From the NCBI GenBank assembly GCA_973895155.1, contig OZ316899.1, forward strand, positions 12,465,934-12,529,933: a stretch of 64,000 nucleotides of DNA. Direction: 5' to 3'. Within the stretch, counting starts at the first letter, position 1; every line of letters begins with the position of its first letter. Below, one piece after another: positions 2,788 to 64,000 of the stretch. The notes under the pieces were generated by a model. The model had not been told where the DNA came from. It worked only from the letters and a program-made list of their open reading frames with translations, and searched no databases. The position numbers and the translations under genes were made by a program. The stretch comes from Marsupella aquatica (Eukaryota; Plantae; Marchantiophyta).

Positions 2788-3155
2788 TGTGATGCCGCCG
2801 GTACGGCGGGTAATGAGTAATTCAGTCTAATTGCGCTTAGCATGTGCGTTAGGGGTATCTTAGGCCGTTATTATTAGCATAACGACAATATTTAGGTAGC
2901 CATTCTAAGTAGGAAATCATTAGTCAATAAGGGGAATTCATGTTCAGGCTGGTGGCAGGTCGCCATTCGCACGCCCGGGTTGCGAGCATGTAATGGGCCC
3001 TTTTTCCCCCTCCCTTGGGTCCGTATAACAAACTCCGGGAGGCGGCCACTGACACGAGCTGACCTGGACTGGCGAAGGGGCTGGTACACTGCGAGCGTGA
3101 AAGGCTCGACCTATAAGCGACGAGGAGGCGTCGGGTGATCGACGACCTCTCAGGG

Positions 3156-3162
3156 TATAAAA
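3156..3162 (+). promoter_or_regulatory. TATA-like box upstream of the LTR-A ORF
   Basis: TATAAAA followed by a pyrimidine-rich leader and an ATG about 100 bp downstream; conserved in the 3' LTR near 21227. Confidence 0.55.
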
Positions 3163-3261
3163 GGGGGGCCGATCCTTTGTAGTGCACCAGCTCTCCAGTC
3201 CACGCGCCAGCTTCGATCCCAACTCTCTCGCTTTTCCTTAGTCACCTGCTATCTCCTCTGA

Positions 3262-5855
3262 ATGTCGCACACAATCCTTTCCAGTTCGGCCATACAATTC
3301 TGGACTCAGTTCCTGTCTATCGGAGGGCACTTGGCCGACTCATTGAAACATGCCAACCCGCGCCGATATGAGATCGAACGCGAATACGAGAGAGCCATCC
3401 GCCTAGCAGGCTGCCACCACTATCTCCTTAACTTTGAGTACCCATCCCATAGCGAGCTTTACCGACCTAAAGAGGTATCAGGGTACTTCTTCGACGGAGG
3501 CAAATACATCGGCTTCTGGGAGGCATTGCTTCGGCTTCCGGACGAGGTCTTCAATATTCCGGGCACGATCGACTTGCAATGGCACCACTTCGACCACATC
3601 CCCGCTCGGGTTTGGGCTATCATCAACGGCGAGTTCAACACTACCCGGTCGACAGGACCATCTTCACTTGCATCGGAAAACCTCCACCGACACCTGCAGA
3701 ACTTCATGGCAACTCTACCATCAACGACTAGTGCCGGCCAACCCGTGCTCGTACCCGCACCTACACCTCCTCGGCCTCAGCCAAGCTGGTCCCCGCCACC
3801 GGTTCCACCACCTCTCCGAGTACCATCCGTGGTGAATGCGGTAAATATCAGCTTCGAAGACGAGGAGGCTCACCCTCCTCTGAATCAACGGCCGCAGGGT
3901 ACGAACAACCCAACACCACTCCAGCAAGCCCAAGGGGATAACACGGTAACGCTAGCGGCCCCGACACCAATACTCACGGCAGTGGCGCTACCACCACCTG
4001 ACCGAGAGGAAGGAGAGATGTCCCCTTCTTCTAGTCACCCCGGTAATCAGTCTCGGGGTAGGAAGAGGAAGAAGCCTACAGCCGTATCCGGGTTGCCTTT
4101 GGCCACAGTTGCGGTAGCCAAGCTGACCATGCATCGCATGGGGGACAATGTTCACAAGAACATCCTCCACCCCAAGCATGCATGCTATCTAAAGACCCAG
4201 GGGTTTGAGCACCTCGCCTCTCTCCCTTGGAACGAAAGTAGGTATTACGGGCAGGATATGACGGAGTTCATTCAGAACTTCAATGAGGCCCGCCAAAAAA
4301 CTCGAGCGCATGGGAGAGTGATGTGTCTCAATGAGGCACGTCTGAAGATGATTTTTGGCTTACCCAAGGGGATAAACCGGGTAGAGCCGCGGGCTCCAAG
4401 GGGCAAGGGAGCTAAATACCAGTCATCTAGCTTTCCGGCCGAGGGAGTAGTGGACAATGGGTTCTTAATGAGGACGTGCCTCATCCCAGAGGTAGCAGAA
4501 CGCCTAGAGTTCCAGCGGTATGCCCTCCACATGATGGAACCCAGAGGAGAAATATTGGCCGCTCAGGTCATCCAGGTGGAGAACTATCGGCCCAGGAAGT
4601 GGGCGTCCTGCTTCATCAAGAAGTTCCACGAGGAGATGGAGCGGAGAAGGAAGACTTTGTACCTTGGTGGGAGGGCGTACTTCGCTAGCCACATCAAAAT
4701 CATCCTCGAGTGGTACGCTCATTTTGACCGTCAGAGCCTCCCGCGTCTCAACGAGCCCGAGCTGGCCCCGCCAAAATGGGTGTTCCCAGCCCAGGTAAGG
4801 CGACCGTAGCCCGAGGCTCAAAGTCTAGCAGCTGCAAGTCCTGCTACCATGGCCCCGCAACCCGCCGCTACCGCCCCGCCAGGCATACCCATTGACGTTA
4901 TCGCGACCTTAGACATGATCAATTGGGACAATGCCATCAAAGTCGGGCCGGATGAAGCCGTACCCGAAGCAGATGCCATGGTAGCCGGGGAGATTCCTCC
5001 ACCCCTCGCGGTTGTGCAGGAGAACCACCCACCTCCAGTGGGACCAGCTCCTTTGACCGACTTACCTCAAGGGCTGGATGTGTCCACTCCTACTCTCGCA
5101 CGGGTTGGAGTCTGCCCGTGCCCGAATCCAGAAGGACACAGTCTAGACCATCCGGAACTCTTTGCGTCGGGCACATCTCTGAACGGGTTGTTGGAAGATT
5201 TCTCGCAACAGATCTCTCGTGACACCGGGGAATACATGGCCCGGAGGGTGGCCTACTTCTTCAACCAGGAGTTGGTTGCGGCAGTAAGGGCAGGACATGC
5301 GCAGGCAGAGACCGCACAGAGAATAGAGCGATATCGGGTTGAGTCTGCCTACCTGAAGGACAAAGTGGCAACCCTAGAGGCTGAACTCCAGCAACTACGG
5401 CCTCAGATAACGGCCACGGAGGACCAGGTTGCGGAGGCTAGAGCCCAAGCAGCGTAGGAGTACAAGCCGGGCTCGGAAAGGACGTCGAGATCGCACGGCT
5501 CCGGACCAAGATTGACGGTTTGCAGGGGCAAGCCATCAGTTGGCAAAAGGATCTGGAGGAAGCTGACTCCAAGTCTCAGCGAGACACAGCCGAGATTGAC
5601 ACCCTGAAGGCAGAGGTGGCGCGGCTTCAAGGAGAAGCCACAAAACAGGCCCAGTTGGTGGACAAGCTGATGAGTGACACCCAGCAACTAGAGGAGGCAT
5701 GCCAGGAGGCCGTGGAAGAGGCAGACGTGGCAAAGCGAGAAAACAAATCTCTGCTGGACCAGGTCCAGCTACTCAAGCAGGACACCGACAGGCACAGAAG
5801 GCAACGGGATAGCCGCTCCCACTCAGGTGGCTCTGGCAAGCGTGCCAGGCATTAG
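3262..5855 (+). pseudogene. LTR-A-encoded accessory protein (PMD/plant-transposon-protein-like domain plus coiled coil), about 860 codons, disrupted
   Basis: ORFs 3262-4809 and 4849-5457 share a frame; the TAG at 4807 is CAG in the 3' LTR. A frameshift near 5460-5475 leads into 5520-5855. Motif GFEHLASLPW..MTEFIQNF..IFGLP..DNGFLMRTC. Confidence 0.85.
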
Positions 5856-6760
5856 CGGCGGAGTAGGATTAGAGTAGAGTTAGGAATAGCTAAATTAGGC
5901 TATAGGGACAAGCACCTGCCCTAGTTAAAGCAGCACTGCCATGCTGTACAACCTGCGTAGATTAGGATCTTCTAATAAGATAAGCCGTTTTCCGGCCTGA
6001 CAGCCAGCTTAGTTAGGACCTTAGTTAGCGAATCTTTGGGCGCGAGGGCACTCCGTTCCTCAGCCCTTAGTATTTAGTGCACCCCTCGGTAGAGGCAGGG
6101 GGGTTTTTAGTCTCAGTGTTGGACATCCACGATATGTGCGGGGAGTCCCGACCTCTGGGAGTGAAAGTGTACCAAGGGGAGGGTGTAGGACTAAGCTTGC
6201 TGGGCGAGTGCGGAGCTAGGCTCCGTTGTAGTGTACACCATCAGCCTTGGACCTGTTCATTCCAGAGATTTTGGGTCAACTAAGTGTACGCATATGTCTC
6301 CTATGTAGTAAAATCCTTTCCCATTATTTCCTTCGTGTAAATCGAGATTGTATGCTTGTGCGTCTGTATATGTGTGAATCTCGTGTATAGGTGCCAACAT
6401 TTGGCCGAACGCACTACCCGAGTCGTGCACGGGGTGCAGCTTGCGGGTAAGTGGTTGCGAGCCCGGGTTGAGTACCCATACCATCGAATCCGGATCAAAG
6501 GCAGACAACATGAAGGCTTAGAAGCCCATAAGCCGGGGTCGGTCCTGCTATCGACTGAGATACGTTCCGGCGACGGAACACAAACCATACCTAAGAAGTG
6601 TCCGTATATGACAATAGGCGCACTTAGCGCTAGTTTATGTGATTTAGGTGCATTCCGTGCCTCCCTCCTTGCCCGAACCCTCATATTGACAAAAGATGTG
6701 CCTGTCTGAGCCAAAGCCCGGTTAAAGCCTAGGCTGACGACGTGACATAGCCTTTGTTTT

Positions 6761-6778
6761 TGGTGCTAGATGGAGGGG
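6761..6778 (+). promoter_or_regulatory. Primer-binding site, tRNA-Asn type
   Basis: TGGTGCTAGATGGAGGGG versus the recalled complement of the plant tRNA-Asn 3' end, TGGCGCTAGAAGGAGGGG (2 mismatches); lies 13 nt after the LTR. Confidence 0.75.
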
Positions 6779-7245
6779 GCACTCTACGTGTAGTAGAGGG
6801 GAGACATGTGCGGGTGCACTTAGGCAGAATACACCAGGCCCTTGTGAGTTACTAACCATTGCATTTATATGAGTAAATGCCCGTCACTCGTTCTCAAGCA
6901 GCTTACTTGAGGAGATTGACCATCGAACGAGAGAGTGCAACCCCCACAAGCTCTGACTCTTCAGGTTTGGAGGATTCGCAATCGCCTCGACAAATGAACA
7001 TACCACCGGGACCTTTGGGGTCCGGTCCAGCCGGTCCTGCTCTGGTCCCTGCTGCACCACCACCGCCACCAGTACCTATGGCGGCCACCCCACCGATGGC
7101 CCGCGCTGCCCAAGCTCCCCCACAAATATCACAACGGTCGCGGTTCAATTATCGACCTTTCAAAGGGCGTCATGAGGATGATCCAGATGAATGGTTGGAT
7201 GAGTTTGAAGCCACTGCTAAGGCCAACGGGGAAGACGCCATTAAG

Positions 7246-10200
7246 TGTGATGCCTAGCCAGGAATCACTAGGACGGTTTACATGGTAAAAGTAGGAGTGT
7301 ACCCTAAAAATACCTTAGTATAGTTACAAGAATGAGGAAAATATAAACAATTAAGGGTGACTATGGAACCCGGGCCGAGGCCGGAAGTAAGGATGCCGGG
7401 GGAGAGAACACGATTAGGGTTAGGGCGCGATAAGCGTCGGCGGCTAGGGGTGACCAACGGGAGGGAAGACCAGAGGCGGAGTGGGGTAAGGACCGCTCGC
7501 AAGGAATAGTGGCTCATTTGCAAGCACGAACTGGGCAGACGACTATGGGAGGCCAAATACTGTCAGCTGCTTAGGCAAGCACTCTGGGTGGGAACAGATA
7601 CCAATGATCGAGTCAAGGAGGGTATTAGCAACGTCAATCAAGCGACATATTTTTGGGGATGCCTATTCAAACGGGCAACTGAGTACATTGGGACTTACAA
7701 GGACGAAGAATTGGAGAGAGCAGCTCGAGAATGGCAGGAGCTCGCTCGACTGTGGGAGCTGCAGAAGTTTGCCTTCTTAGGAGGAGAACTCATCAAGGCC
7801 GAGTTCTTGTGGACTCCTACTGCCAATCAGCTTGATGACCTTCTATTTTGCGAAGACAAAATCGTCGGCATTCGGGAAGCCATCAACCGCTGCAACAACG
7901 CGCACTGGGAGTTGAAGGGTAGCACGGAAGGGTGGACCAAGGCAACTATGCTAGGAGAAACATCCACGGCAGCCGAGATGAAGAGGAAAGGAAACAACAA
8001 CGAAGAGGCCACCCCGGCAAAAAGAACGAGGTCGGCGACACCAAGGAAACCAGCAGAGCAGCAAAACCGGAGACAGGGAGAAGCCGAAGAGGAGGAGGTC
8101 GATCCCATCAATGCCATTCCAACAAATGATGACACCTGGAAAGGCTGGGCGGCGACCCTACCAGAGGAAGTGCAATTACATTTTGCACGGGAGGAGGATG
8201 CATGCTTTATGGCCATGCAGACCAAGAAGTACTAGGGCTTCATGGTCGGATCCGGCTTGGAAGCCTTCGTAAGATTACCATGGCTGAAGCCGGAGGTGCC
8301 AGACTCAGACTTATTAGAATTCATGGGATCATGGGAACCCGAGACCAATTCCACGAGGGTGTATTGGAAGGATTTCTATCTCACTCCCCGGGTGATTGAC
8401 TAGGCGTTTGGCTTGCCAATGGGCAATAAGACCAAAGTAGATACCGGGAAGACCTTGCCAGACAAGGAGTTTTGGTCGTTTCCAGGGCCATCAACAAAGA
8501 ATGGCTTCTTCCAAAACAGCTGCACCAACCCGCATATCGGAGAATGATTGATTTCTTGCGGGTAACCATGCACTGCAACTTGCCAAGGGCAGAGATTGGC
8601 AAGGCACACGTCTACCTGGCGGAGAGGCCAGACCCAAGCCGGGACTATAACGGGTACCTCCTCACCCAAATGAAGAAGTTCTTGAAGGAGGAACAGCAGG
8701 TGATCGGCGTGGGAAGCATGTCCCAGCTTGGCTATCACATGCCGTTGTTGTGCCGGTATGCCCGAAGTCAGATCTTTGCCCCGGTACTTCCCCTGTAGGC
8801 AAGGGCACTAGAGGAGGTTCCAGAACAGAGGCCGGCAGCAGAGAAGCAGACTTGCCGATATAGCAATCAGACATGCAGAATCTGCTGAAAATGCTGGAGA
8901 AGGAGAGAACGGCACCAGCAATGGCAACGGCACCGGTACAGGACACTGCCCTAGAGGCCAGCCTAAGCCGACTCAGGAGGGAAAACCCCTTTACTAGAGC
9001 CAAGGAGAGAAGGAGGCCGGAACACAAGCCGGGAGTGCGAATGTATGTGGGAGCCTCAAGCCCCCAATCGGAGACAGCAGCCTAAGGCTCCTTCCCGCGG
9101 AGAACAGAGGGAGAGGACAGCATGGAACCCAGAGGAGGAACAAGGGCCCGTGATCTGTGGGGCCGTTTTCACGGCAGGACCAGGGGAACAGAGGGGGAAG
9201 CAGGGAGTCCAAGCAGTGGAGGAGGCGGTGAAGGACTACAGCAATGATAACTCCGGCTATGGGTCGGATCATCATGTTCCAGGAGTAAGGACCTGTGGCC
9301 GATTTATCCCCACGCTTCCAAGAGTAGTTCGAGGGGACCCCACCCAGCAGAGTAGCCCCAAGTCTCCCCCACCAGAGGTTGCTCCCCCGAGCTTTGACGG
9401 CATAAAGCAGACGGCACAAGAGTTTCAGGAGCGACTTAGGGAGGAAGAGAAAGCAGCCCTGGCTAGGGAGAAAGATTTACCAGGAGGAGATTGGCCGGAG
9501 GACATCAGGCGGCTTGCCGAAAAAAGAAGCAACCCTCTTGCCACCGTAGAAGAAATCCGCAAGGCAGCGTGGGAACAGGGGCCAAGGTGGTTGATGCCGA
9601 TGACTTCTACTTACTCCACCTATGCCAAAGATAGAGCCATGGAGTATGGGGAGATGTGTGGGGACCTAGCGGTCAGCATCTTTGGGGAGGAGTTGGAGCA
9701 GGGACCTTTCTTCCAGAGGGAGAGGTTGGAGAAGCACAGATTAGAAGAAGCGGTGGCTTTGGAGAGAACCAAGAAGGACGAGGTCATCCGGCGGCTTAGG
9801 GAGAAGAAAGCCGAGGTGGAAGTCCTGCAGGCGGCCAAGAAAGCCCAAGATGAGCTGCGGATTAAGCGGCATGAGCTAAACATCATGCAGGGCCAGTTGG
9901 ATATCGCTCAGTCTGACAATCAGATTATCAAAGATAAACTGACTTGGACCCAAGGAGAGTTGGCCGGCGCAGTCAAAGAAAGAGAGAAATGGAAGCGGGA
10001 GCTAAGGGACGCAGAGGAGGCCCACTTAACCGCCAACAACCAGGCCATGGCGGAGACTCAGAGAAGGGAGAGGGTATTGAAAGGAGAGCTCAAAGATATC
10101 CGCGGAGCCCTTGAGCAGAAGGAAGCAGAGTTAGGGAAATCCTATCAAGGGATTATTGCGCTGCAATAGGAGCTTGCGTCCCTGACGGCCAGCTTCAAGG

Positions 10201-11827
10201 CCGACCTGCGTGAAGGACGACCAGCTCGATCAGACTTATGCCAAGATGAATAAGATGGAGTCTGAGGTCGTAGCAAAGCTCGACAAGGAGCTAAGAGCAA
10301 CCCAGGAGGAGACGGCTACCTTAAAAATGGAATTGGAAGAAGCCAGAAAGGAACTGGAGGAGGCGTGCAAAGACCTGGACGAGACCTAGGAGGAGTTGGA
10401 GGAAATCACGAGGAAGATGGAGAACCTACAGCGGAGGGCCGACAACCAAACGGAGCGGCTGAAGAAACAAGCCGCAGTATTTAAATGCTTGGCTTCATCA
10501 GGTCCAACTCCAATTGGGGCAACCTAGCTACCAGGGGTAGTATTGGCCGAAGGACAAGCCGAGACACTCACCCCGGTGTCGGAGGTAAGTGGCAAGGGGA
10601 AGGAACCGGTTGTCGAAATAGGGAAGAAGAAGAAGCGGAAACCTTCTAGGTTGGGAGTTATACGGCTTCTCAAGCCGTTGTGACCGAGAAGATAAACCCG
10701 GCACCAACCTCCGGCATCGGCACGGCGGTGGATCCACCAGTCCTAGGAAGTGGGGATGGCAAGGCCGAGGCCGGGACAACAATAATGAAGCCGAGGTACC
10801 AGATCCTCCACTAGAACATGCCGGGGAGGCCGTGGCCGATGCTGAGGCCGAAGCCGAGGGTGGACCCAGTCAGGCCGATGAAGAGTTGACTCGGTCCGGG
10901 GCAGGTAATATGTCAGAGGACGTACCGACGGCAGTGGCTGCGGGGGAAGCGTTGGGGGCGTCCATTGAGGATCCGCCACCGGTTTCATGACGGTGCAAAG
11001 GCGCTGTTCCTTTTAGGAAGGACGGACGTGGAGGTAGGAGGCGTGAGTGGGCAGGGCAGGCGCTAATCTCCAAGTTTAGACTAAGGATCAGGACCAGGCG
11101 ACGGCCCTGACACTTAGATTAGTGGGATTGCAGATCCACGAGTGAGGGCAACACTTGTGCTCCTGCCTCGCTGTACATAGGTAGATTACAGTTAGGTAGA
11201 TTACAGTAAGTAGATTAGGCTTACGCTGCAAGGAATCAGGCGGATCCGCAACCAGGATAAGTACCTGGGCTGCGGGGAGTTCAGGGCCTCTTCTTTAGCA
11301 AGTTTTTAGTTGCACCAGTAGGGCTGGGATCAAGTAGTAAGAGAACCTCTCGGTTAGTTATACAGAAAGGTATGAGATGTACTGTTTGTATGGCAAGTGC
11401 ATGGTATAACTCAGTCAGAAGGAGTCATTTTGCTATTTGTGTGTCGCATTAACTTGTGTGAAGAGTGCCCACATCAATGAAGGGAAGTAGCAAGGGAGTG
11501 AGAGATGGATGTGTCGAGCTGAGAGAGGTCTTAGCGGCTTAACCAAGCCAATTGGGGATCATTCCGGCGGCGGAATCCAAACATACCTAATGGAAGACCA
11601 GGAGAGGAATACAAGGGAGGGCCTAGAATAGGCCGGCTAAGTATCTCATGACCCGATGAAGGATCTGTCTAGTATATGTGTGTAAAATGTTAATCGTAGT
11701 AGTAGAGGAGATTAGCAGCGTCCCATGCTGCTAAGCCGCGGAAATGGCCTCATCGAGGACGAAACCTGCGGGAATCAGCTTGTGCGGGGGGGTTTCTTGG
11801 GTTTTGGGCCCCATGGGACGCACCGCA
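7246..11827 (+). mobile_element. Family-C solo LTR (4582 bp) inside gag of A
   Basis: Termini TGTGATGC...GCACCGCA (GCACCACA in the 63073 copy). The same 5' end occurs at 49355 and the same 3' end at 63073 with different flanks. No gag/pol inside. No C copy with a PBS or PPT is visible, so LTR status rests on termini and shared LTR motifs. Confidence 0.8.
7363..10990 (+). pseudogene. LTR-C-encoded accessory protein, disrupted (end approximate)
   Basis: ATG at 7363 (MEPGPRPEV, as in the 49240 copy) follows TATAAA at about 7342. GLEAFVRLPW..LLEFMGSWEPET..AFGLP..KNGFFQNSCTNP, then a long coiled coil (9045-10500). Stops at about 7508 and 8233 are sense codons in the other copy. Confidence 0.8.
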
Positions 11828-14800
11828 AGGAGCCCCTGCGGAAGTTCATTCAGAAGTTTCAGAAAATTGCTGCCAAGATCCGACCTAGGCTGGGTGACGC
11901 GCTCCAACTTACGTGGTTCCTCCATGGTTTGCCCACGAATATGCAATTCTGGGTGCGCCAGAATAACCCAATTTCAATGCAAGCAGCCATAGCGTGCGCC
12001 GAAACCTACCGGGAGTCCACCTATAACTCCCGGTGAAGCCAGCGGGCACGCCGCAGGAAGGGGCAAGTACGAGACCTTCAGTGACAGTAACTCCGAATCG
12101 GACGACGAGAAGAAGAAGAAACGCAAGAAGAAGAAGAAACATCATTCAACCTCGTCAAGTTCGAAGACAGAATCTAGTTCGGATTCGACTTCGACCAACG
12201 GATCCTCCACTTCTAGCTCATCAAGAAGCGATTCGGAGAGCAAGAGCCGGAAAAAAAGAAGAAGAGGCGGGTTAAGAAGGAGGGAAAAATCAAGCCCCAT
12301 GTTTGAAGAATGATACCCAATCCAAAGGCCGCCGAAGCAGACAAGATTAAAAAAATCACGGATCGTCTCAAAGCACTGTCGGTACATCTTGCGGAAAAGC
12401 CTATGGAGAAGAAGAAGCCACCCGAGACCCGAGCACATGCGTGGTGTTCAAAGTGTTTCCAATCCGGGCATGTAGTGCAAGAATGCCCAAGATGGAAGAA
12501 CCGAGTCCACTAGGTGGAATTAGATGATGTTGACAACACGGGACCTGAATCGGAGTCCACTGAGTATTTCTTTGAAGATCCCCCGGATTCGGTGTATCAG
12601 ATTTCAACGGTGGGTCCGCATAACTTAGCAGGTAGAACTGCATACCCCTACCCAAACAATGGCAAAAGTTTCCAAGTTATCAATAACCCGAGCATTCCTC
12701 CTAAGCCAGGGATTTGGCGATCCCCAGTTTGTTACAACTGTGAGAAGCCAGGCCACTTTGCGAGGGAATGCACCGAACCAAGACGCCAGGGGGATGGCCG
12801 AGGCACACCACTATGTCAAGTCTGCAAAACGGAAGCTCACTCCATGGCCAACTGTCCATTGGTAATAGCCACTCGAACAAGCGCAACAAGACCGGCCCAG
12901 GGCGGACCGGCCACGAGCGATGCAGTCATCCAAATGATTGTTGTGGAATGGCAAGATGACAACACCAAGTGGGTAAATCTGGTGGACGTGGCGGAGCACC
13001 CTAATCCATTGAACGAGGCTGAGTGCTACCGAGTGTCAACAAGAGCCGAGCGGAAGGAAGAAAAACAGGAAGAAAAACGCAGGAAAAAGCAAGATACTAC
13101 TCCAGTGCAGCCAGCGATAGATATACCCCCGGAGAAGGACGATGACTACCATCGGGATGACCCAAAGCTATTTTATCCCCACATCAAAGAATTGGTAAAG
13201 AAACAGTTGGAGGCCTACGAAGCTCAGGAATACCAGAAAGCAATCGATAAGGACATCAAAGCTGCCGAGGTCGCCCGACGACAGGAGCAAGAAAAGCAGG
13301 AGGAAACCAAGCAGCAGCCGAAGGAAGAAAAGAAGGAGGACTATGATATTAATGAAGACGTGAAGAGTTGCCCGGTTACGACAACGGTAGGGCAACTGCT
13401 GTAAAACAATCCAGAGTACGAACGGCAACTGAGGGAGTTGCTTACGGGTTGGCGACGGAGGCGACTACCCCGAGTTGGGATCGCGGACTGCAACATGATA
13501 TGCAAAGACCTAGGAGAGCCGGACATCTCGATTGAGATCAATAATTGTACCATCAAGATGGTTCTTGTAGACGGAGGAGCGGGAGTCAACATCATGACTG
13601 AGGAAACATCAGTCAAGTTAGGATACCTCACGTATCAACCCACAGCCCGAGCTATCAAATTAGCAAACGGGGCAAGGGTCCTTCCATTGGGCACGCTCAC
13701 TCGGGTGCTCACTCTTGTTGGAGGGGTGGAGTTCTATCTCAACTTCCTAGTCATGAGGCTGGTTCGGCCCTCCTCTTATCCGGTCCTTTGGGGCAGACTG
13801 TGGTTGTATGGTGGCCGAGTAATCACGGATTGGGGAAAAAAGGAGCTACGGTTTGGGACACCCACAGTACAAGTATCTTGGGCACTGGATGATTATCGGG
13901 GTGAAACCCCACAGGGACCCGAGGAATATGATTCAGAGACCTCGGAGGAAGAGGAGCTCAATATGATTGAACTCATTTTGTCCCTATCCGAGGAAGATGT
14001 CTTCGGAGTAGAGGCAACCCGGGAAACACATCTCCTGAATTACCAGAAGGTTGCTATTGAGTCCACCCCGAGCACCTCTACCGCCCAGACCGATGAAACA
14101 CAAAAATGGCCCATCAATACGGAGGACACGACTCCAGCTAAGCAGGGAGCCGATGCTGCTTCTACCAGTGCAGAGCCTAGTGACCACGAACCGGCCAAAC
14201 AACTGCCCGAGGCCAAAAACCCGAGACCGAGACATAAGAAACGAGTCTCCTGGGACCCATCCATCCCAAAATTGGAGGAATTAACCCCAAATTTGAAACC
14301 GATCCTAGTTCCACCCATGTACGAAGGAGTTTGGTTAGCTGAGCTGGATGCGAGCCTGGACCCAAAATTGCGGAACCAGGTGGAAGTCATAAGAAAGGAG
14401 CACTACTGGAAGTACACCATTGGTATGGATAAGTCTTTTAACCTGGGCCATGCTTTGACGGGGGAGGCGGAAAAATCTATCCAAGCACTGCTCAAGGAAT
14501 ATGAAGATGTGTTTGCATGGAGCCATCACGATTTGACGGGAGTCTCCCTCGAGTTGGGAGAACACACGATCAATTTGAACTTGGGGCCCATGCAGTATGG
14601 CAGTGGCAACGTTGCATGAACCCGAGGTACTCCATCTTAGTGAAGGAGGAAATTGATCGTCTCCTCGCCGCAGATATCATCTACCCAGTAATGGGCAGCG
14701 ACTGGGTTTCTCCCATTGTCATTGTACCAAAGAAGGGAGGTACGGACGGAAAACCTAAGATTCGGATCTGTCAGGACTATCGTAAGTTGAACGACACAAC

Positions 14801-20845: not shown

Positions 20846-20858
20846 AAGCAGGGAGCTA
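20846..20858 (+). promoter_or_regulatory. Polypurine tract region of A
   Basis: AAGCAGGGAGCTA immediately before the 3' LTR; element B has nearly the same context (CGCTTC.CAATTAAG...GGAGCTA). Confidence 0.75.
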
Positions 20859-24990: not shown

Positions 24991-25019
24991 AGGAAAGAAT
25001 ATATCAGCCTATTCATTAA

Positions 25020-44051: not shown

Positions 44052-44069
44052 TCCCCGGCAGCGGCGCCA
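44052..44069 (-). promoter_or_regulatory. Primer-binding site, tRNA-Asp type
   Basis: TGGCGCCGCTGCCGGGGA versus the Athila-type Asp PBS TGGCGCCGTTGCCGGGGA; lies 20 nt after the LTR. Confidence 0.88.
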
Positions 44070-54872: not shown

Positions 54873-57800
54873 TCAAACGGTGTCGCGCCCTCGCAAACCG
54901 GCTGAATAAGGAAGATGATATTTCTTGACTCGAGACCCATTGACTCGGGTAGGTAATTCCTCACCTTGTAAATCTTCCAAGATTAAGGATCCATTAGGGA
55001 AAATTTGCCGCACCTTATAAGGTCCAAGCCACCTTGTGTGTAATGTCCCAGGAAATATCATGTACCGGTTATCATATAATAACACATAATCATTTGCCTG
55101 TATTTCCACCTTCTTCAATTTTTTATCAAATCTTTGGCTCCTGATTCTCTGTTGCTTCTCTGTTTCAACCAAGGAGAAGTGTCGATCTTCCTTGAGCTTG
55201 TCCAAACTTTCCAATCTTAATATTTGACTTTGTTCAACATCGAGTCGTTGAGGATTGGCCACTCGGTCAGTGGGTACCTCGAATTCAATGGGTACTATAC
55301 TGTCCAAGCCATAGACTAAATAAAATGGAGTTCGACGCGTTGTAATCTTTTCTGCGGTGCGGTAGGCCCATAGAGCAGAGTGTAATTTCTGATCCCAATC
55401 TGACTTATGTGCAGAAACTACCTTAATTAAAATTCTCTCCATTAATCCATTAGCCTTCTCAGTTAAGCCATTTGCTTTGGGGTTATAGGGGGTAGTCTTT
55501 CTATGCTTAATGAGATACTTGTCAGTGATATGTGCGATCGTATTATTTAGAAAATGTAAGCCTCTGTCACTGACTAGTTCTAATGGGCACCCAAACCGTG
55601 TAATGATGTCTTCAAATAAGAATTTAGCAGCAGTGGCAGCATCATTTCGCTTGGTGGCTCGTGCTTCTACCCATTTAGTAGTGTAATCCGTAGCTAGGAT
55701 GATGTATCGATTACGAGTGTGAGCAGCTGCAGGTTGAATAGGCCCTATAAAATCAATTCCCCATTTTTCAAAAGGAGCTAAAGGTAAGATGGGAGTTAAA
55801 GGCCAATGAGAAGTAGAGGTGGGTTTACCCATGCGTTGGCACGGATCACATGACTTGATAAATTGATGTGTATCTTGATGCATGGTGGGCCACCAATATC
55901 CGGCATCCCGTATTTTCTTTACTGTAACATTGACTGCATAATGGCCTCCAACTTCTTCCATGTGCATGGCAGCAATAACCTTCCTAACTTCTCGTTCTTC
56001 CAAGCAACGCTTAAGTTTCTGATCCGGGGAAAGTTTATAGAGGATTCCTTGCTTCAAGGTATAAGGTCCAACCTTATGCAAGAAAACAGCACGTTGCTCG
56101 GGGTTGAGGTTAGGGGGAAACATTCCTTGAGTTAGCATTTGAACAATGTCTACATACCATGATTCTTCACCCTCGATGTGCCATAATGTCTCATCTGGAA
56201 AATCATCATTCAATGGCTCTCTAGATTCATCGCCTTCCAATCGTGAGAGGAAATCAGCGTTGTCATGATGCTTCCCAGGTCTTACCCGGACTTCAAAATC
56301 ATATTCTTGTAGAAGCAAAACCCAACGTGCAATCCTTCCTGAAAGATCTGCTTGGTTAACAAGGTACTTAAGTGAAGAGTGGTCAGTGTGGAAAATGGTT
56401 TTGTACCCCAACAAGTAGTGGCAAAATTTCTTGCATGAGAAGATTACTGACAAAGCTTCTTTCTCTGTCACCGTATAATTCTTCTCTGCTGCATTCATTT
56501 GTCGACTTGCAAAATAAATGGGGTGATCCTTCTGATCATCATCTTGCTGGCTTAGGACAGCTCCAATACAGAAAGCTGAAGCATCAATGTAAACGTGAAA
56601 TTCCTTTTCCCAATTTGGTGGAACTAAAACAGGAGCTCGGGTTAATCTGCCTTTGAGTTCTTCAAAGGCCTTCTGTCTCAAGGCTGTCCACTCATAATCA
56701 ACATCCTTTTTCAACAGTTGAGTAAGTGGCATGGCAAGGTTAGCGTAATGGCGAATAAATCGACGGTAGTATACTACGTAACCTAGAAATCCCCTCAACT
56801 CTCTTAGATTAGAAGGAGGTTGTAGTTTTAGGATAACTCTGACCTTCTCAGCATCAATCTCAATTCCCCGGCTAGATATGACATGCCCTAGCAAGATACC
56901 CTCTCGCATGCCAAAAAAGCATTTCTCGGGGTGTAGAGAGAGCTGTGATTCCCTACACTTTTGGAAAGTCAATCCGAGCTTTTCTAAATGGATTTCGTCT
57001 GAACTATAAACACAGAAATCATCAATAAAAATTTCTATAAATCTGTGGAGGTACTCTTGAAATATGATCATCATTATTCGTTGAAATGTTCCAGGGGCGT
57101 TGCATAACCCAAAAGGCATCACATTAAATGCATAAGTTCCCCAATCCGTCGTGAACGTTGTTTTATCCCGATCCTCCTCTCGTACTGAAACTTGGTTATA
57201 CCCTGAGTATCCATCAAGGAAACTATAAAGAGAATGAGCAGCTACTGCATCAAGCACAGTGTCAATGAATGGTAAGGGATAATGATCTTTCCTTGTTGCA
57301 GAATTCAATTTCCGATAATCTTGACACACACGAATCTTCACTTTGCCATCTGGTCCAGACTTCTTAGGCACAATAACAATGGGTGATACCCATTCGCTGC
57401 TAAGGACTGGAAAAATGAATCCAGCCTCCGTTAACTTGTCAATTTCCTCTTTTACCATCATGGAATACTTAGGGTTGAGCCGATATTGTCTTTGCCGGAT
57501 CGGAATTGATCCTTCAATGAGGTCAATTCAATGTTGCACAAGGTAAGGGGGAATTCCTTTGATGTCCTTGTGACTCCATGTGAATATATCTCGGTATTGC
57601 TTCAGCAAATCTATATATTTTTCCCTCAATTCTCCTTGAATATGTTTACTGATATTGAGGAATTTCCCTGGCTCAATCTCAATCTTCTGGCAGGATTTGG
57701 GATCAACTATCCTTTCAGTCATTCCCAAAGACTCCTTTTCCCAAGTGTTTAGGTTTGATGGGTCTTTTATACTTCCAATTTTACTACTAGGATCTCCCCT

Positions 57801-60800
57801 AGAATCCTCACTTTCTGGAAAAGTTTTGGTCAATTTTGAAGTCGGGAAGGTAGTTTTCCGGATAGGTTTTGGTAAAGATGGATGGGGAACTGGGAGTCAT
57901 GCCGGCTCAGGACCCGGCTCAAAAACAGGTTCAGTAACCGGTTGAGGAACCGGTTCAAGGGCTGGTTCGGGAACCGGATCCCCCGTGTTTTTCGGATGGT
58001 ACTTATTAACTGGCTGATTTAAATCTGGTGATTGTATAGAAGGGTTAGGAGTAGCGTACCTCTCTAAATCTAAACTACAAGCTTCACTTGGTTCGTCAAA
58101 TTCAAAGATATCAAGAAATCTGATATGTGCATCAGTATCTCTTGACAGTTTTGAGGATTGGGATTGGTTGACTTCTTCATCATCTGATGATGAACTTGAA
58201 GAATTAGAGGTGTAACCATCATCTTCTTCTGTTTCACCAAAGTGTCGCTCATCTTCCCAACTCAAAGTTACTTTTGGAGACCCAAAACTGAATTGCTTTG
58301 CATGCCAATTAACTCTGACGCGTGCTAAGTACAGCCAAGGTCGTCCCAACAAAACAGGAAATGTGGATGGTGTTGATGGTCAAATTATGATGTAATCTAA
58401 TGAAAATATTCTTCCTCCAATTAGGGTATCAATTTTCAGTAACGAACCTACAGGAATCACCCTGGATTGGTCTGCCATTCGTAGGATCCGAGATGTGGGC
58501 TGAAATTTGAAAAATCCCAGATCAGCAGCGGTCTGTTCTGTCATAATATTGACACTTGATCCTCCATCCACAGGGACCTTAGGGATCACACATCCTGAAA
58601 TTTGTATCTCTATTTCAGGTGGACCATGGTCAGTAGATTCCACCTTCCAACATCCATTAACTTCCACTTCTGGTAACTTAAATGGACGCCTCCGCGAAGT
58701 GACCAATGTCTTCATTTGTTTTCTAAAATGGGCATTGGACTTGAGCAATTCTCCAAATGTAATGTTGGCTTTCAAATTACTCACATCTGCAACTATATTA
58801 TAAGTATCCATCCGTCCATCAATATGCACATGGTGAGGATCAACTTTGAAACTTACCTTTTTCCCTGGTTCCAAGGGAGTATCAGTTTTTCCCTTACCCA
58901 TTTCCTTCGCGAGGATTTCCTTAACTTCGTCAGAGATGTCGGGGAGAAAATACTTAGGATCGTGTCGATCATATACATTTTCCTCTTCAATCAATTCCTT
59001 CCCTCATTTTGGATTTGACTTTTCCGCTGATTTGGATGTTGATTTTGGTTTGACGATTGAATCTGCCTCTTTTGCCTTCTGCTTGGAACAAGTCGTAGCA
59101 AAGACATTTAGTATCTGATCACTCTCTCTGATCTCCAAGTTAGGTTGGCCTAGTTCTCCTTCTTTTAATAAGTGTCGATGATCCTTATCATATGTAATCC
59201 CAGCAGGTCCTCCTCTCGACAATACTGGGTTATGGATGTCACTTACACACCCTACAATATTTTCTTCATAGCTGTCCACTAGGCCGCAAGGTGAATCATC
59301 CTCTTCTTCATAATAGACCAGACGAACTGATGGTTCAGGCAGTGCTGCTTCCTTGACTGGGTCCTTGACATAACGAACCATCATCTTTGGTTTCTTTGGT
59401 TGGGGACATTCAATTGGAAGATGACCACTTCCTCCACAATTTCCACAAATTGGTTCGTATCCTACATCTCTTTTTGGCCAGGGGCACGAAGGTGAGAAAT
59501 GATCCTTTGCCCCACAATTCCAACATACTCCTCTGACCAATTGGGACCTGGGTGGGTAACCACCAGGTGGTGCCATTGGCGGTTTATACACTGGCTTATT
59601 AAAATTAGAAACTGGTCTTGGAGGAGGGTTAGGAAAGTACTGTACAGGGGCTGGCCCTGCAATTGTTGGAGGTCCCATTTGGACTTGGTAGCTAGCCTCA
59701 AGGTAATATGGGTGCAATAATGGGTCTTCTCCTTCTTCATAATTAGGGTACTCCCCATTGGTCAAATAATTTACTGATTTGAGTAAGGGACACTCTTGTG
59801 GGCAGTGTCCTGGTTTCCGGCATACTGTACACCATACATTTGCCCTCTGAGGTGTCAATTGTTTCCTTGGGGGTCGTGTTGCAGCTGCATTAACATTCAG
59901 GTACTTCATTTCTTCAAGGAGACTAGCCATTTGTCCCGACATTTTATTCAATTCTGCACTTTTAGGTTGCGAAACCTTTTTCCCCTTTCTTGTAATTTTT
60001 GGGGAAGATTCCTCATCTGATGAGCTGTTGGTCTCGCTACTGGATTGAGATGTGGAACTGTCTTGTTCTGAACTGGAAGTGTCACTTGTTGAGGTAGAGG
60101 ATTCAGCCTTTTTCTTCTTAGATTTCTTCTTGCTCCTTTTCTTTTTCGACTTACTGTCCTTCCGTAACTCTCTCAACAAGTGTTTCCTTTGTGACATCTC
60201 AGAGTCAATATAAGACTGAGCTAAGTCGTATGCTCTCTCTAGGGTTGCGGGAGCCCCTTGTCTTACAAAAGTGTTTAATTTTGTATACAAACCTTGCATG
60301 AACCACTCCTTAATTAAGTTTGCAGGCGGAGGTGGTGTCACTTTATTTGCCAGCTTGGTGACTTTTTGTAAGTAGGTTCTTAAGGAATCGCCTTTCTTCA
60401 TATTTACAAAACTTAATCTTGTAAAAGCTCTAGAAGTAGCTCCCTCTTCCCTGAAAGTTTTGAGGAACTCTGCTCGAACAATTGGCCAATTTGTCTTATC
60501 GGGCAAACTTGAATACCAAGTTCGGGCTTCTCCCTTCATTAAACCTCCAAATACTTTTGCCTTTAGATCAGGGGTATCATCCCCATTGGATGTCGCCACG
60601 GCTTCAAAATCATCCATCCATGCTTCAGCATCTGCTTTCTTGCCACGAAAGTTTTCATAACGGACTCGTGAACGACTCGCCATGATTGTTGTTGTTGTGA
60701 CTTTTCTTGAAGCAAATGGAAGAAGTGGCGGGATAGATATTATGATAGGTGATACAGATGTGCCAGTTGAGAGGTTAGGGGACACTTGCATGTTTTGGTT

Positions 60801-61466
60801 TGGGGAGTTATCCAATCCTGAGGTGCTTGGGCTACTTCTGTATCCTCCTGAATCAGAAGTGGGATTTGTGAATTCCTCTTCTGATCGCTCAAAACCTTCG
60901 CCCACCAATTGCTCAGGTGAGTCAAAGAATTCCTCAGGTGTGATCTGTGCAAGAGAGCCGACTAAAGAGGGTTCCCGTTGGCTCGTATTAGAGAGACGAG
61001 GTGATACTGTTTGGTCTTCTCTTAATATTTCAGACTTATGGCCTTTAGCTTGGTCATGATCCGCAGGTTCCGAACCCCCTGAGTCAGCACTGGTCAAAGT
61101 TGTGTTGTGTCCCACGTCCTTCTTCACATTAGAGATGCCGTAAGCCGTAAATCCTGGTGACCCTAGGGATATATCTCCGTCTAGGCTGGTGGATCTCCTT
61201 AGTGCTTTACCTTGCGGCTTCCTTGGTTTCCTGGGGACTATCTCTTTAGGTCCCGAGCGCAAGTTAACAAACAATGGTCTACTAGCAGATGGCTTCTCTA
61301 GTGTGCCACTTCCTTTTTGTTGTTGTAAGAGTGACACCCGACTTGTGACATTCCCCGGTGCTGGAAATTCTGGTGAGCGGAATTTGTTAAGCAATTCTGG
61401 AGAGTCTGATGGTTTGTCCGGTAACCCTTCCCTCTTCTTCCAAATGTGTTTATTCCTATCAGTCAT
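54873..61466 (-). pseudogene. gag-pol of E: one frame, four TGA stops
   Basis: ORF pieces starting 61466, 58994, 58352, 57833 and 57461 are all in frame, with TGA at 59004, 58380, 57897 and 57528. All gag/PR/RT/RH/INT motifs are present. Confidence 0.95.
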
Positions 61467-61713
61467 TCCTCATGGTGTTAGATACTTACTCCCTTTGGTG
61501 TTTTGCTTTCCAATGTAACCCCTAGTATGCGGCTTTGGTCAGCCCCCTCTTCCTAGGTGAACAGTCATGACCCATCCTGTCTATGGTCACGTTGGTTGAC
61601 TCAAGAGTCATGTGGATGAAGAGTCATAACGGTCAGTGGGGTTGTCCAAAAACCTCACAGCCTCCGGTTTCTGAGCCGATGGCTGATCCGGTTCCTGAGC
61701 CGGATTTCTTCCG

Positions 61714-61956
61714 TCACCTTCTCCCTTGCCTGGCTATCACCCTAGCTAATTCAGGGATGGAAATAATCGCATAATGTTCCCCTGTAATCTGTCCATTTAT
61801 TGTTAAAATTACTAAATGTAAATCTGCTGCTTCCCACCAGGTAATGGATAGCGTGTGTACTCCCCGTCTACCTCGTTGGATTAGTGTCCTAATGCGATTT
61901 GAAGCATTCCTTAAGTTTTGCGCTCTAAAGGAACCCAAACTCCTTCGTGGTGGCAT
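61714..61956 (-). CDS. Small basic ORF (80 aa) upstream of gag E
   Basis: ATG-initiated, same strand, and packed between the 299-aa ORF and gag. Confidence 0.35.
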   Translation of the reverse strand: MPPRRSLGSFRAQNLRNASNRIRTLIQRGRRGVHTLSITWWEAADLHLVILTINGQITGEHYAIISIPELARVIARQGRR

Positions 61957-62030
61957 GTTTTAATAAGCTTCTGCAGAGCTCGGACAGGATTGAGTTGCTT
62001 GGTGAGTTTTGATCAGATTCCCTTTTTATT

Positions 62031-62930
62031 TTAATCATCCCAGGCTTCCTCGTCATCCTCATTATAAGGGAGTCTTAACTGAACCAGGTCTTGGTAGCTA
62101 TTCAACAAATTTTCCAAACAATCAACTGAATCTGTCCATGGTGTTTCTACCAAATGTAATTTGTTCAGAACCTCCTCATACTTCTGTTCTTCCTCGGGTG
62201 TAACACGTGCAATTGGAATCTTGTGTTTCTTTAAGAAGAAGTCTAAATCATATTCCTCTTCCATCGGCTGCAACCTTACTCCTTCCATCCACTTCCTTTT
62301 TAGCACTAGGACATTAACCAACCTTGCTATCGGAGGTAGATCTGTCGTCCATTTGAATGAAGTTTGGCCATTGATAGGAAGCTCCCTTCTTATCACCTCC
62401 CAACTCTCATTGTAAGGATCTCTTAATTGATCTATTAAACGACATCGAGCCAAGGTCATCACCGACTTCTCCTTCCCTAGCAAATGATTTGAATTCTCAT
62501 AATAATACTTCAATACATGTTCAAGTTCAATCCCCCAATTTGGATTTTCACTTAAATGTCCCAATGCTGATATCAATTCTCCTTGTGCATCTGCCTCTAA
62601 AGTTTCTTCCTCCAATTGGTTAGCAATTATGAATTCCGGAATGATAATTTGGTCAAATTCGTGGTCTGCTGTGGCCGTTACCAATTCTAGGAGCCCATCA
62701 ACAGCTCGCTTGAAGACAAAGATCTTATCAAATAGAACATTAGTGGTCCAGGATTTGAGAGGGACTAAATCTTTACCCCAATAATAGCTTTCTCCCAAAT
62801 CATCCTCTTGTCTTCTCTTCAGTATTGTGGAGCGACCTTGTGCACAATTACACTTAATAGTGTAGATCTGATTTTCCCTAGACCTGATTTGGGCTCGTTC
62901 TCTCTTTCCTGGTCTGTGCCGCCTTACCAT
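62031..62930 (-). CDS. Unknown 299-aa 5' extra ORF
   Basis: Intact ATG-initiated ORF with protein-like composition on the gag strand; no motif recognised. Confidence 0.7.
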   Translation of the reverse strand: MVRRHRPGKRERAQIRSRENQIYTIKCNCAQGRSTILKRRQEDDLGESYYWGKDLVPLKSWTTNVLFDKIFVFKRAVDGLLELVTATADHEFDQIIIPEFIIANQLEEETLEADAQGELISALGHLSENPNWGIELEHVLKYYYENSNHLLGKEKSVMTLARCRLIDQLRDPYNESWEVIRRELPINGQTSFKWTTDLPPIARLVNVLVLKRKWMEGVRLQPMEEEYDLDFFLKKHKIPIARVTPEEEQKYEEVLNKLHLVETPWTDSVDCLENLLNSYQDLVQLRLPYNEDDEEAWDD

Positions 62931-63072
62931 TGGTGAAACACCAATCCTTTAGACTCAATTGTCTCTTATTTCATGCTCCATTCTTCCTAGATTCCTTCTG
63001 GAGTCTATAATCCCTCATTCTCATTATTCTTCTAAGTCTGCCTCTTGGCAATGTTTCACCAATGACCGTCCC

Positions 63073-64000
63073 TGTGGTGCGTCCCATGGCTCCCTAAACC
63101 CAAGAAACCCCCCAGCTCAAGCCGATTCCCGCAGGTTTCGCGCTTGGCGAGGCCGTTTCCGCGGCTTAGCGGCATGGGACGCTGCTAACCTTCTACTACT
63201 ACTATTAACATTTTACACACATATACTGGACAGATCCTTCATCGGGTCATGAGATACGTAGCCGGCCTAATCTAGGCCTTCCCTTGTCTTCCCCTCCGTC
63301 TTGTTAGGTATGTTTGGATTCCGCCGCCGGAATGATCCCCAATAGGCTTGGTTAAGCCGCTAAGACCTCTCTCAGCTCGACACATCCAACTCTCACTCCC
63401 CTGCTTACTTTCCTTCCTTCTGTTAGTTGATGTGGGCACTCTTCACACAAGTTAATGTGACACACAAATAGCAAAATGACTCATTCTGACTGAGTCATAC
63501 CATGCACTTGCCATACAAACAGTACATCTCATACACAAGCTCTGCAAACTAAGCCGTGAGGCCAACTCTATTCAGCTCTTAGGCATGAGGAAACATGAAT
63601 ATACACAAGGGTCACTGTATGACTAACCGAGAGCTTCCCTTACTACTTGATCCCAGCCCGGCTGGTGCAAACTAAAAACTTGCTAAAGAAGAGGCCCTGA
63701 GCTCCCCGTTGCCCAGGTACTTATCCTGGTAGTGGATCCGCCTAATTCTTTGCAGCATAAGCCTAATCTACCTAACAGTAATCTACTTGCCCGGATCTAC
63801 CTATGTACAGCAAGGCAGGAGCACAAGTGTTGCTCCTACCAGTGGAACCGCAATCCCACTAAGCTAACTGTGAGGGCCGCTCCTGGTCCTGATCCTAATC
63901 CTAAACTTGGAGATCAGCGCCCGCCCTGCCCACTCACGCCTCCTACCTCCACGTCCGCCCTTCCTAAAAGGAACGGTGCCCTTGCACCGTCACGACACCG
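63073..64000 (-). mobile_element. Family-C LTR 3' end, running off the window
   Basis: Reverse complement aligns to about 10980-11827 and ends GGGACGCACCACA. Confidence 0.9.

What the first reader, a model, noticed from the sequence alone, without database searches (positions are those of the whole stretch)
2788..64000. Four families of giant LTRs that each carry a long protein-coding ORF
Seen: LTRs A (3960 bp), B (4131 bp), C (4582 bp) and D (truncated) each hold a long sense ORF, about 0.6-1.2 thousand codons where complete; in A and C a TATA-like box lies just upstream. For A and B the PBS and PPT fix the LTR limits, so the ORF really is inside the LTR and is duplicated at each transposition. 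Known: plant Ty3/gypsy extra ORFs (Athila, Ogre, Retand) normally lie between the LTRs; LTR-borne ORFs are known from retroviruses (MMTV sag). Inference: each solo LTR would be a self-contained gene, so LTR-LTR recombination, which normally disarms an element, would leave this accessory gene behind. I do not recall this being described in plants.
Basis: partly seen in the sequence, partly recalled or inferred. Interest (0 to 1): 0.88.

Follow-up and report, generated by a model that had tools for sequence, protein, structure and literature searches.

The report
Anti-silencing-like gene inside giant plant LTRs
Several jumping-gene families in what is likely a liverwort genome carry a long protein gene, conserved by selection, inside the terminal repeats at their ends, and in three of four families the protein is predicted to fold like a known plant transposon factor that switches off host silencing, which would give these puzzling extra genes a testable job.

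Summary
Four LTR families of about 4.0–4.6 kb (one truncated) carry a long sense ORF. Element B is the clean case: two 4.13-kb LTRs with 3 differences flank an intact gag-pol, each with an intact 618-aa ORF. In other public contigs LTR C is followed by a primer-binding site. The ORFs show a synonymous excess in 5 of 5 between-copy comparisons; the neutral LTR-pair control shows none.

Three of the four ORFs share a ~200-aa domain. It is homologous to the ordinary 3'-internal extra ORF of two elements in the window and remotely to Athila's PF20167. Its confident AlphaFold model matches only VANC21, an Arabidopsis transposon anti-silencing DNA-binding protein (Z 7.6–7.9, next 2.6; a middling score). 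B's ORF has no detected homologue.

Best reading: an Athila-related, likely liverwort lineage moved its accessory gene into the LTR, probably an anti-silencing or chromatin factor. Solo LTRs as lasting genes are unsupported: only B's ORFs are intact, and no RNA data were available. Ten literature searches found no plant precedent; this scan noted LTR-internal ORFs earlier in fungal genomes. New variant of a known kind; interest 0.74.

The parts
2788..6747 (+). Element A 5' LTR (3960 bp, TG...CA)
   Evidence: 93% identical to 20859-23134; 3' end supported by the PBS, by a diverged relative at 463-1725 and by a contig joint 6747->10582 in run X5
3156..3163 (+). TATA box of LTR A, 106 nt before the ORF start
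   Evidence: motif scan, same position in both A LTRs; function not tested
3262..5855 (+). LTR-A ORF, about 865 codons: N-terminal domain, Pro-rich linker with basic patch, conserved domain, coiled-coil tail; two stops and one frame change
   Evidence: an uninterrupted 906-aa homologue P0204 is colinear at 32% over aa 13-494
4132..4740 (+). Conserved ~200-aa domain with predicted VANC21-like fold
   Evidence: 80 homologues; AlphaFold pLDDT 94.9; VIA Z 7.6-7.9 to VANC21
6761..6778 (+). PBS of A, 13 nt after the LTR (tRNA-Asn-like; tRNA identity recalled, not from a call)
   Evidence: sequence
7246..11827 (+). Solo-like LTR C1 (4582 bp) inside A's gag, no target-site duplication; broken ORF 7363-~10990 with the same domain at about 8185-8777
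   Evidence: end joined to the A-type PBS in contigs of X2 and X3
6877..17186 (+). Degenerate gag-pol of A, interrupted by C1
18046..19790 (+). Internal 3' extra ORF of A (two frame changes), homologous to the LTR-ORF domain and 48% identical to D's
20845..20858 (+). PPT of A
20859..23134 (+). Element A 3' LTR, cut by the insertion of E; carries the first ~600 codons of the ORF (broken)
   Evidence: contigs of X5 join 23134->5100 across the insertion
23135..25014 (+).
33341..37471 (-). Element B 3' LTR (4131 bp) with intact 618-aa ORF at 36308-34452; the pol stop codon lies inside this LTR
37436..43834 (-). Intact 2132-aa gag-pol of B (gag, zinc knuckle, protease, RT, RNase H, integrase; no archaeal RNase H or chromodomain hit)
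   Evidence: Pfam
44052..44069 (-). PBS of B, 20 nt after the 5' LTR (tRNA-Asp-like; identity recalled)
44090..48221 (-). Element B 5' LTR (4132 bp) with intact 618-aa ORF at 47057-45201 and GC-rich tandem arrays (47 bp x4.8, 64 bp x2) upstream of it
48222..49355 (-). C2: 5' part of a second C LTR, frame open over its whole length
   Evidence: 85.5% to C1
49356..50886 (+). B': 3' fragment of a diverged B-family LTR; ORF part 92% identical without gaps, non-coding part 83% with 28 gaps
50887..51624 (-). C3: middle fragment of a C LTR ORF
   Evidence: 93% to C1
52615..54018 (-). Intact internal 3' extra ORF (467 aa) of a more distant element (D-int), same domain family
   Evidence: E 1.7e-11 with a profile of 43 database hits; hhalign probability 96.8
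54873..62930 (-). gag-pol of D-int and a 299-aa ORF upstream of it; its own LTRs not defined
63073..64000 (-). C4: 3' end of another C LTR; no recognisable PBS follows it
   Evidence: 88-90% to C1
463..2790 (-). Diverged A-family LTR fragment with the coiled-coil end of the ORF
   Evidence: 72% nt to 5475-6745

Best explanation
These are Ty3/gypsy retrotransposons, likely Athila-related and from a liverwort, whose LTRs contain a protein gene under purifying selection that likely descends from the elements' ordinary extra gene and is predicted to encode a VANC-like DNA-binding protein that would counter host silencing of its own family. Shown: LTR position (B fully, A partly, C by an adjacent PBS in other contigs), selection, and homology of the A/C/E domain to the internal extra ORFs. 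Inferred: the gene entered the LTR when plus-strand priming moved to a purine tract directly behind pol, so that the old pol-to-LTR region became U3. It is transcribed from a TATA promoter near LTR position 300-370. The protein enters the nucleus, oligomerises through its coiled coil, binds family-specific motifs in the LTR and lowers DNA methylation or otherwise opens chromatin. Selection acts through the element's own copying; once inserted, copies decay neutrally. B's ORF has the same overall layout but its homology is not shown.
For: LTR position; C end joined to the PBS in X2 and X3.
Selection: dN/dS 0.27-0.34 (kappa 1) or 0.40-0.50 (kappa 4) in 5 between-copy pairs, against 0.55/0.70 for A's own two LTRs. 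Against a context-matched neutral null, 42, 0, 7, 1 and 0 of 2000 simulations reached the observed synonymous share; the control gave 547 of 2000.
One family: 80 homologues at E<=0.001. A profile of 43 of them, with no window sequence in it but chosen with a window-built profile, finds A, E, C and both internal extra ORFs (E 1.7e-11 and 2.5e-10); hhalign probability 96.8 over 175 columns.
Athila link: PF20167 hits 5 of 57 members, best E 4.6e-7, and is the domain of a sunflower Athila 3' extra ORF (PMC11728184).
Fold: pLDDT 94.9, pTM 0.90; VANC21-DNA is the only one of 48,161 chains at Z>=5 (7.6, rmsd 4.3, 191 aligned, next 2.6; Z 7.9). VANC resembles MAIN/PMD and has a coiled-coil dimer helix (PMC13547354). 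No hydrophobic 19-mer above 1.19 in the LTR ORFs; basic patches in A, B, C; coiled-coil-like tails (crude score).
Origin: B's pol ends inside its 3' LTR; contigs of X1 and X2 join 17170->20786, skipping A's internal extra ORF; A and B group with Calypogeia (100/100) while A's 3' region resembles D-int's.
Against: The VANC21 match is middling: Z under 8, rmsd 4.2-4.3, 9-11% identity, Foldseek E 2.0 with TM 0.44; the tool notes that best Z of 7-8 is common, and a shared fold shows no function. The related MAIN protein promotes silencing (PMC5418596). No sequence match to VANC21 at E<=10. B, the only intact ORF, shows no homology to the family. Repeated motifs of the VANC-target type stand above shuffles only in B's LTR, not in A, C or E. 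A carries both an LTR ORF and an internal paralogue, so it is not a simple move. A's only clear TATA lies upstream of the ORF, which could place the ORF in R/U5 instead of U3. E was never seen flanking a gag-pol.
Confidence: 0.5

Rival explanations
1. Same LTR-borne PMD/Athila-type gene, but it acts as an integration-targeting, particle or RNA-packaging cofactor, or as a self-limiting repressor like MAIN, and not as an anti-silencing factor.
For: The fold is shared with MAIN, which silences transposons (PMC13547354; PMC5418596). Athila-domain proteins are predicted to form coiled-coil pentamers and many host contacts. No target-like motif arrays in A, C or E.
Against: The aligned part of VANC21 (residues 300-533) comes from a DNA-bound structure. 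Several basic positions are conserved in the family. An element gains nothing obvious from two copies of a repressor.
Confidence: 0.27
2. The ORF lies in R/U5 behind the element's main start site. It is a 5' extra ORF like Ogre ORF1 or rice ORF0, absorbed when the primer-binding site moved downstream, and gag-pol is made by splicing or a second start.
For: TATA-like boxes at LTR positions 306-369 in A, B and E and none clear in A's last 900 bp. The PBS sits unusually far (13-20 nt) from the LTR end. D-int has a 299-aa ORF upstream of gag.
Against: The domain is homologous to the 3' extra ORFs, not to D-int's 5' ORF. It would need a ~3.5-kb minus-strand strong-stop DNA. B's pol runs into the LTR with no 3' region left.
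Confidence: 0.15
3. One reading: solo LTRs persist as self-contained genes, kept by the host or by the family.
For: C LTR sequence is far deeper than any internal region laid (depth is not copy number), which could mean many solo C LTRs. Ten of 30 homologues looked up are annotated proteins of Calypogeia fissa.
Against: C1's ORF is heavily broken; A's two LTR copies diverged neutrally with 5 stop codons; B depth fits about two LTRs per element.
Confidence: 0.1
4. The ORFs are remains of other transposons or host genes that jumped into the LTRs and are carried passively.
For: The window is heavily nested; most ORF copies are broken; two Riccia homologues are annotated with a DDE transposase piece.
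Against: Purifying selection in 5 of 5 pairs; the same domain at a similar place in three diverged LTR families; B' keeps frame without gaps while its non-coding part has 28 gaps.
Confidence: 0.04

Closest known systems
Athila clade (REXdb; PMC6317226) and its 3' extra ORF (PF20167 / PF03078; PMC11728184)
   Same: Non-chromovirus Ty3 order without archaeal RNase H; PBS of Asp/Asn type; a sense extra ORF with a PF20167-related domain, nuclear-type basic patch and coiled coil.
   Different: In A, B, C and E the extra ORF is inside the LTR, so two copies per element. RT is 76% identical to Calypogeia and about 49% to seed-plant hits. PF20167 scores are below the curated cut-off. PBS offset 13-20 nt.
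VANC21 of Arabidopsis VANDAL21 (PDB 9lnj/9lnk; PMC5735166) and MAIN/PMD proteins
   Same: Predicted fold over the whole ~200-aa domain; transposon-encoded; coiled-coil partner region; tandem arrays in non-coding element DNA (B only).
   Different: VANC is encoded by a Mutator-like DNA transposon of eudicots; about 10% identity; DNA binding and demethylation are shown for VANC and untested here.
Ogre/Retand extra ORFs (PMD, Transposase_28), Grande gene23, rice Retrosat2/RIRE3 ORF0
   Same: Conserved accessory ORFs of plant Ty3 elements, some nuclear, some in elements with LTRs of 3-5 kb.
   Different: Described in the internal region (PMC7264820, PMC11963269, PMC3485330); Tat-group elements have archaeal RNase H, which these lack.
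LTR-encoded ORFs of retroviruses (MMTV sag; recalled, and one search listing, PMC9412291)
   Same: A protein gene inside the LTR, duplicated at each replication.
   Different: Unrelated protein; no env; about 1.3-kb LTR (recalled) against 4-4.6 kb here.

Membership tests
Ty3/gypsy LTR retrotransposon | gag-PR-RT-RH-INT order | tested here: met
   Pfam on B's 2132-aa ORF
Ty3/gypsy LTR retrotransposon | Two direct LTRs with TG...CA ends, PBS after the 5' copy, PPT before the 3' copy | tested here: met
   B complete; A with a truncated 3' copy; C end joined to a PBS in X2 and X3 contigs; not shown for E
Ty3/gypsy LTR retrotransposon | Target-site duplication | tested here: inconclusive
   Absent at B and C1, whose flanks look rearranged; A's right end is not in the window
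Athila (REXdb) | No chromodomain and no archaeal RNase H | tested here: met
   No such Pfam hit at E<=1 in B or D-int pol
Athila (REXdb) | PBS for tRNA-Asp or tRNA-Asn | tested here: inconclusive
   REXdb: Asp 72%, Asn 12%. The PBS of B and A look like these, but the tRNA identities are recalled; no tRNA set was compared
Athila (REXdb) | RT groups with REXdb Athila references | not testable with these tools
   The REXdb sequence file was too large to read. The tree puts A, B and D-int in a clade with Calypogeia and Riccia proteins, apart from unlabelled seed-plant hits
Athila (REXdb) | Extra ORF in the internal region between pol and 3' LTR | tested here: not met
   Absent in B, where pol ends inside the LTR; present in A and D-int
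Tat/Ogre/Retand | Archaeal RNase H domain | tested here: not met
Phygy/Selgy | Short elements (4.4-10 kb) without extra ORFs | tested here: not met
   B spans 14.9 kb and carries extra ORFs; REXdb ranges
PF20167 (Transposase_32) | Score above Pfam's gathering cut-off (45 bits) | tested here: not met
   No hit on window proteins; 2 of 32 homologues at about 17 bits; 5 of 57 alignment members at E<=0.5, best 4.6e-7: remote relative only
VANC anti-silencing proteins | VANC21 globular fold | tested here: inconclusive
   Z 7.6-7.9, rmsd 4.2-4.3, 191 of 203 aligned, next hit 2.6; Foldseek E 2.0
VANC anti-silencing proteins | Encoded by a VANDAL (Mutator-like) DNA transposon | tested here: not met
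   Encoded in retrotransposon LTRs
VANC anti-silencing proteins | Short target motifs in tandem arrays in the element's non-coding DNA | tested here: inconclusive
   B: a 9-mer 7 times against a shuffle 95% limit of 3; none in A, C, E
VANC anti-silencing proteins | Sequence-specific DNA binding and loss of methylation in trans | not testable with these tools
   Needs experiments

The most novel reading that the evidence does not exclude
A liverwort retrotransposon lineage carries a VANC-type anti-silencing gene inside its LTR, so that every LTR is a self-contained module of promoter, gene and target motifs. Each new or solo LTR could keep its whole family unsilenced in trans, and Athila-type extra ORFs, long called env-like, would be the retrotransposon counterparts of VANC.
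Probability: 0.3. Interest if true: 0.92.

Novelty: new variant of a known kind. Interest (0 to 1): 0.74.

Why it matters
Plant LTRs are treated as non-coding, and the reviews read here place all extra ORFs between the LTRs. These families show selected genes of 600-1200 codons inside the LTR. That would explain some giant LTRs and means solo LTRs can be annotated as orphan host genes: 10 of 30 homologues looked up are unnamed Calypogeia fissa proteins, though their position in LTRs was not checked. The predicted VANC21-like fold gives the long-open question of what Athila-type extra ORFs do a direct test: DNA binding to the LTR and methylation loss in trans. Element B is young and intact, so it is a usable starting point, although its ORF's family is unresolved.

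Tried and rejected
No genome is held for the window, so copies, solo-LTR numbers and full-length C and E elements could not be collected. No RNA holder listed. Runs X7 and X8 (other organism labels) covered mainly the conserved pol; low depth elsewhere is not interpretable.

Word-seeded protein searches found nothing for B's ORF (0 of 7994 candidates) or A's domain (0 of 764). Pfam gave only coiled-coil noise on the LTR ORFs. Homology of B's ORF to the family looked plausible by eye but failed: hhalign probability 0.1-1.4, HMMER E 1.1, and 68 of 150 shuffles scored as well. B's single-sequence model was unusable (pLDDT 34). The viral fold library gave no match at E<=0.001; the PDB sequence search gave only coiled coils. 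The ESM Atlas did not answer.

An env-like role was considered and set aside: no transmembrane-strength segment. That C is the LTR of D-int is possible, since C pieces flank it on both sides in the same orientation, but no PBS or PPT links them. The ends of the DNA transposon were not resolved. The VANC21 structure paper and Sasaki 2022 are not held.


Full report
Setting. The window is a nest of Ty3/gypsy retrotransposons and one DNA transposon. No genome is held for it. B's RT-RNase H is 76% identical to Calypogeia fissa proteins, 65% to one of Riccia sorocarpa and about 49% to seed-plant hits. A tree of 25 rows (3 window pieces and 22 of the 120 listed hits, picked to span the named hosts and the identity range) puts A and B with Calypogeia at 100/100, and D-int just outside. 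The host is therefore likely a liverwort (inference).

Observation. B is decisive: LTRs 48221-44090 and 37471-33341 differ at 3 of 4132 positions, flank an intact 2132-aa gag-pol, follow a purine tract and precede a PBS, and each holds an intact 618-aa ORF. Chance is excluded: 623 stop-free codons against a maximum of 402 in 500 simulations. A's ORF (3262-5855) has two stops and a frame change; A's 3' LTR is cut at 23134 by LTR E, and contigs of run X5 bridge 23134->5100. C1 sits in A's gag without a target-site duplication and with a heavily broken ORF. Contigs of X2 and X3 join C's end directly to the A-type PBS (11824->6757), so C is a true LTR, though its gag-pol was not identified. E is an LTR by its start and its homology only. 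Only the best-supported joints are listed by the tool (12 of 71 rows in table 5c).

Selection. Five between-copy comparisons (B/B', C2/C1, C3/C1, A/relative, A/E) gave dN/dS 0.27-0.34 without and 0.40-0.50 with transition weighting; shifted frames gave 0.7-2.4 (two further rows there, a sub-range of C3/C1 and a 19-codon piece, agree). A's own two LTRs, which diverge only after insertion, gave 0.55 and 0.70, so mutation bias alone lowers the ratio. I therefore simulated substitutions with the observed CG/CHG/CHH-type spectrum: 42, 0, 7, 1 and 0 of 2000 runs reached the observed synonymous share, against 547 of 2000 for the control (C3/C1 there is the sub-range). In B', the ORF part is 92% identical without gaps and the non-coding part 83% with 28 gaps. 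The ORFs are thus conserved while elements replicate and decay after insertion.

The protein. A, C and E share a ~200-aa domain. A profile of it found 80 proteins among 1.84 billion representatives. One 906-aa cluster member is colinear with A's ORF at 32%. A profile from the 43 hits covering most of the domain also finds the internal 3' extra ORFs of A and D-int, confirmed by hhalign at probability 96.8. PF20167 matches 5 of 57 alignment members weakly; it is the domain of a sunflower Athila 3' extra ORF, related to Athila ORF1 (PMC11728184, passages). So the LTR gene belongs to the known extra-ORF kind. B's ORF could not be tied to the family, although it also has basic patches and a coiled-coil-like region.

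Fold. AlphaFold with 57 sequences gave pLDDT 94.9 and pTM 0.90. Against 48,161 solved chains the only match at Z>=5 was VANC21 bound to DNA (Z 7.6, rmsd 4.3, 191 residues, next 2.6; Z 7.9). Foldseek listed it at E 2.0 with the highest TM score of the rows shown, 0.44. This is a middling score that stands clear of the background and covers the whole domain. VANC21 binds short motifs, often in tandem repeats, and demethylates its own transposon family (PMC5735166, passages). VANC is structurally similar to MAIN, and VANC and Athila-domain proteins are predicted to oligomerise through coiled coils (PMC13547354, passages). PMD domains are widespread in Gypsy elements, and MAIN itself promotes silencing (PMC5418596, passages). 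A shared fold therefore points to a chromatin or DNA-binding role, not to its sign. A repeated 9-mer in tandem arrays exists in B's LTR only.

How it likely arose and works. Shown: B has no region between pol and the 3' LTR; A-like copies lacking the internal extra ORF exist in contigs of X1 and X2 (joint 17170->20786, letters between not known); A's pol is closer to B's (67% against 54% over the main block) while its 3' region resembles D-int's. Inferred: an ancestor of A, B, C and E began priming at a purine tract behind pol, turning the extra-ORF region into LTR, and A later regained a D-type internal region. The TATA at LTR position 369 of A would drive the ORF. Whether the ORF is in U3 or in R/U5 is open. 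The protein likely acts in the nucleus on its own family's LTRs; anti-silencing is my best guess (overall 0.5).

Solo LTRs. Not supported. The intact ORFs are in a full-length element. Exactly matching contigs over B's LTR are about twice as deep as internal ones (1572 against 687-719 in X1; 270 against 131-160 in X4), a weak hint of few solos, since the tool warns that depth is not copy number. One X4 contig of 2444 bp spans the whole B ORF with 1 substitution and 6 gap letters. C is much deeper than any internal region laid, which may mean many solos or an internal region that is not in the window. No RNA run was available.

Comparison and novelty. REXdb lists Athila with Asp/Asn primers and no archaeal RNase H (PMC6317226, passages and supplementary file 5). 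This fits, but membership could not be tested against references; its files 1 and 3 were too large to read and might list elements whose extra ORF overlaps an LTR. The extra-ORF review (PMC7264820, main text read in full), the Retand survey (PMC11963269, passages) and the Retrosat2 paper (PMC3485330, passages) place extra ORFs in the internal region. A liverwort genome paper names Athila among its lineages and showed no LTR ORFs in the passages seen (PMC12885004). Ten full-text searches found no plant LTR-internal gene. The library lacks most subscription journals; Steinbauerova 2011 was not read, and Sasaki 2022 and Tanaka 2026 were not held. Earlier notes of this scan report LTR-internal ORFs in three fungal genomes (unchecked); none matched A's protein or this genome.

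Verdict. Real, selected, and apparently undescribed in plants: a known kind of accessory gene in a new place, with a structural lead to anti-silencing. New variant of a known kind, interest 0.74.

Noticed in passing
window 6748-6760 and 44070-44089: The PBS lies 13 nt (A) and 20 nt (B) beyond the LTR's terminal CA, against about 4-5 nt for C in other contigs and 0-5 nt in the REXdb survey; this implies unusually long end trimming or a different priming geometry.
   Followed up: partly
window ~25015-32600: DNA transposon-like insert with an intact 1263-aa DUF7869 protein (29378-25590, minus strand), a 22-bp array at 25042-25366 and two inverted arrays of a palindromic unit (29505-30739, 31850-32604).
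   Followed up: partly
window 33341-48221: Element B has LTRs 99.9% identical but no target-site duplication and unrelated flanks, suggesting recent recombination between two B copies.
   Followed up: no
window 17170-20786: A's pol-to-PPT region resembles that of the more distant element D-int and is skipped in some contigs: a possible module swap between lineages.
   Followed up: partly
window 62930-62031 (minus): Intact 299-aa ORF upstream of D-int's gag, no Pfam match and no match to the LTR-ORF family; may be an Ogre-like 5' ORF or part of an undefined LTR.
   Followed up: no
window 7246, 23135, 48221, 49355: Most insertions here landed inside LTR ORFs or gag of related elements; contigs show further A-into-C and C-into-C insertions.
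   Followed up: no
window 48201-48221 and 23135-23156: LTRs B and E begin with a short palindrome directly at the 5' end.
   Followed up: no
proteins P0189 and P0200: Two Riccia sorocarpa homologues of the domain are annotated together with a DDE_Tnp_4 piece, so the domain may also ride on DNA transposons, as PMD does.
   Followed up: no
window 32600-33340: Unassigned 740 bp between the DNA transposon and B, with a 162-codon open frame running into B's LTR end.
   Followed up: no
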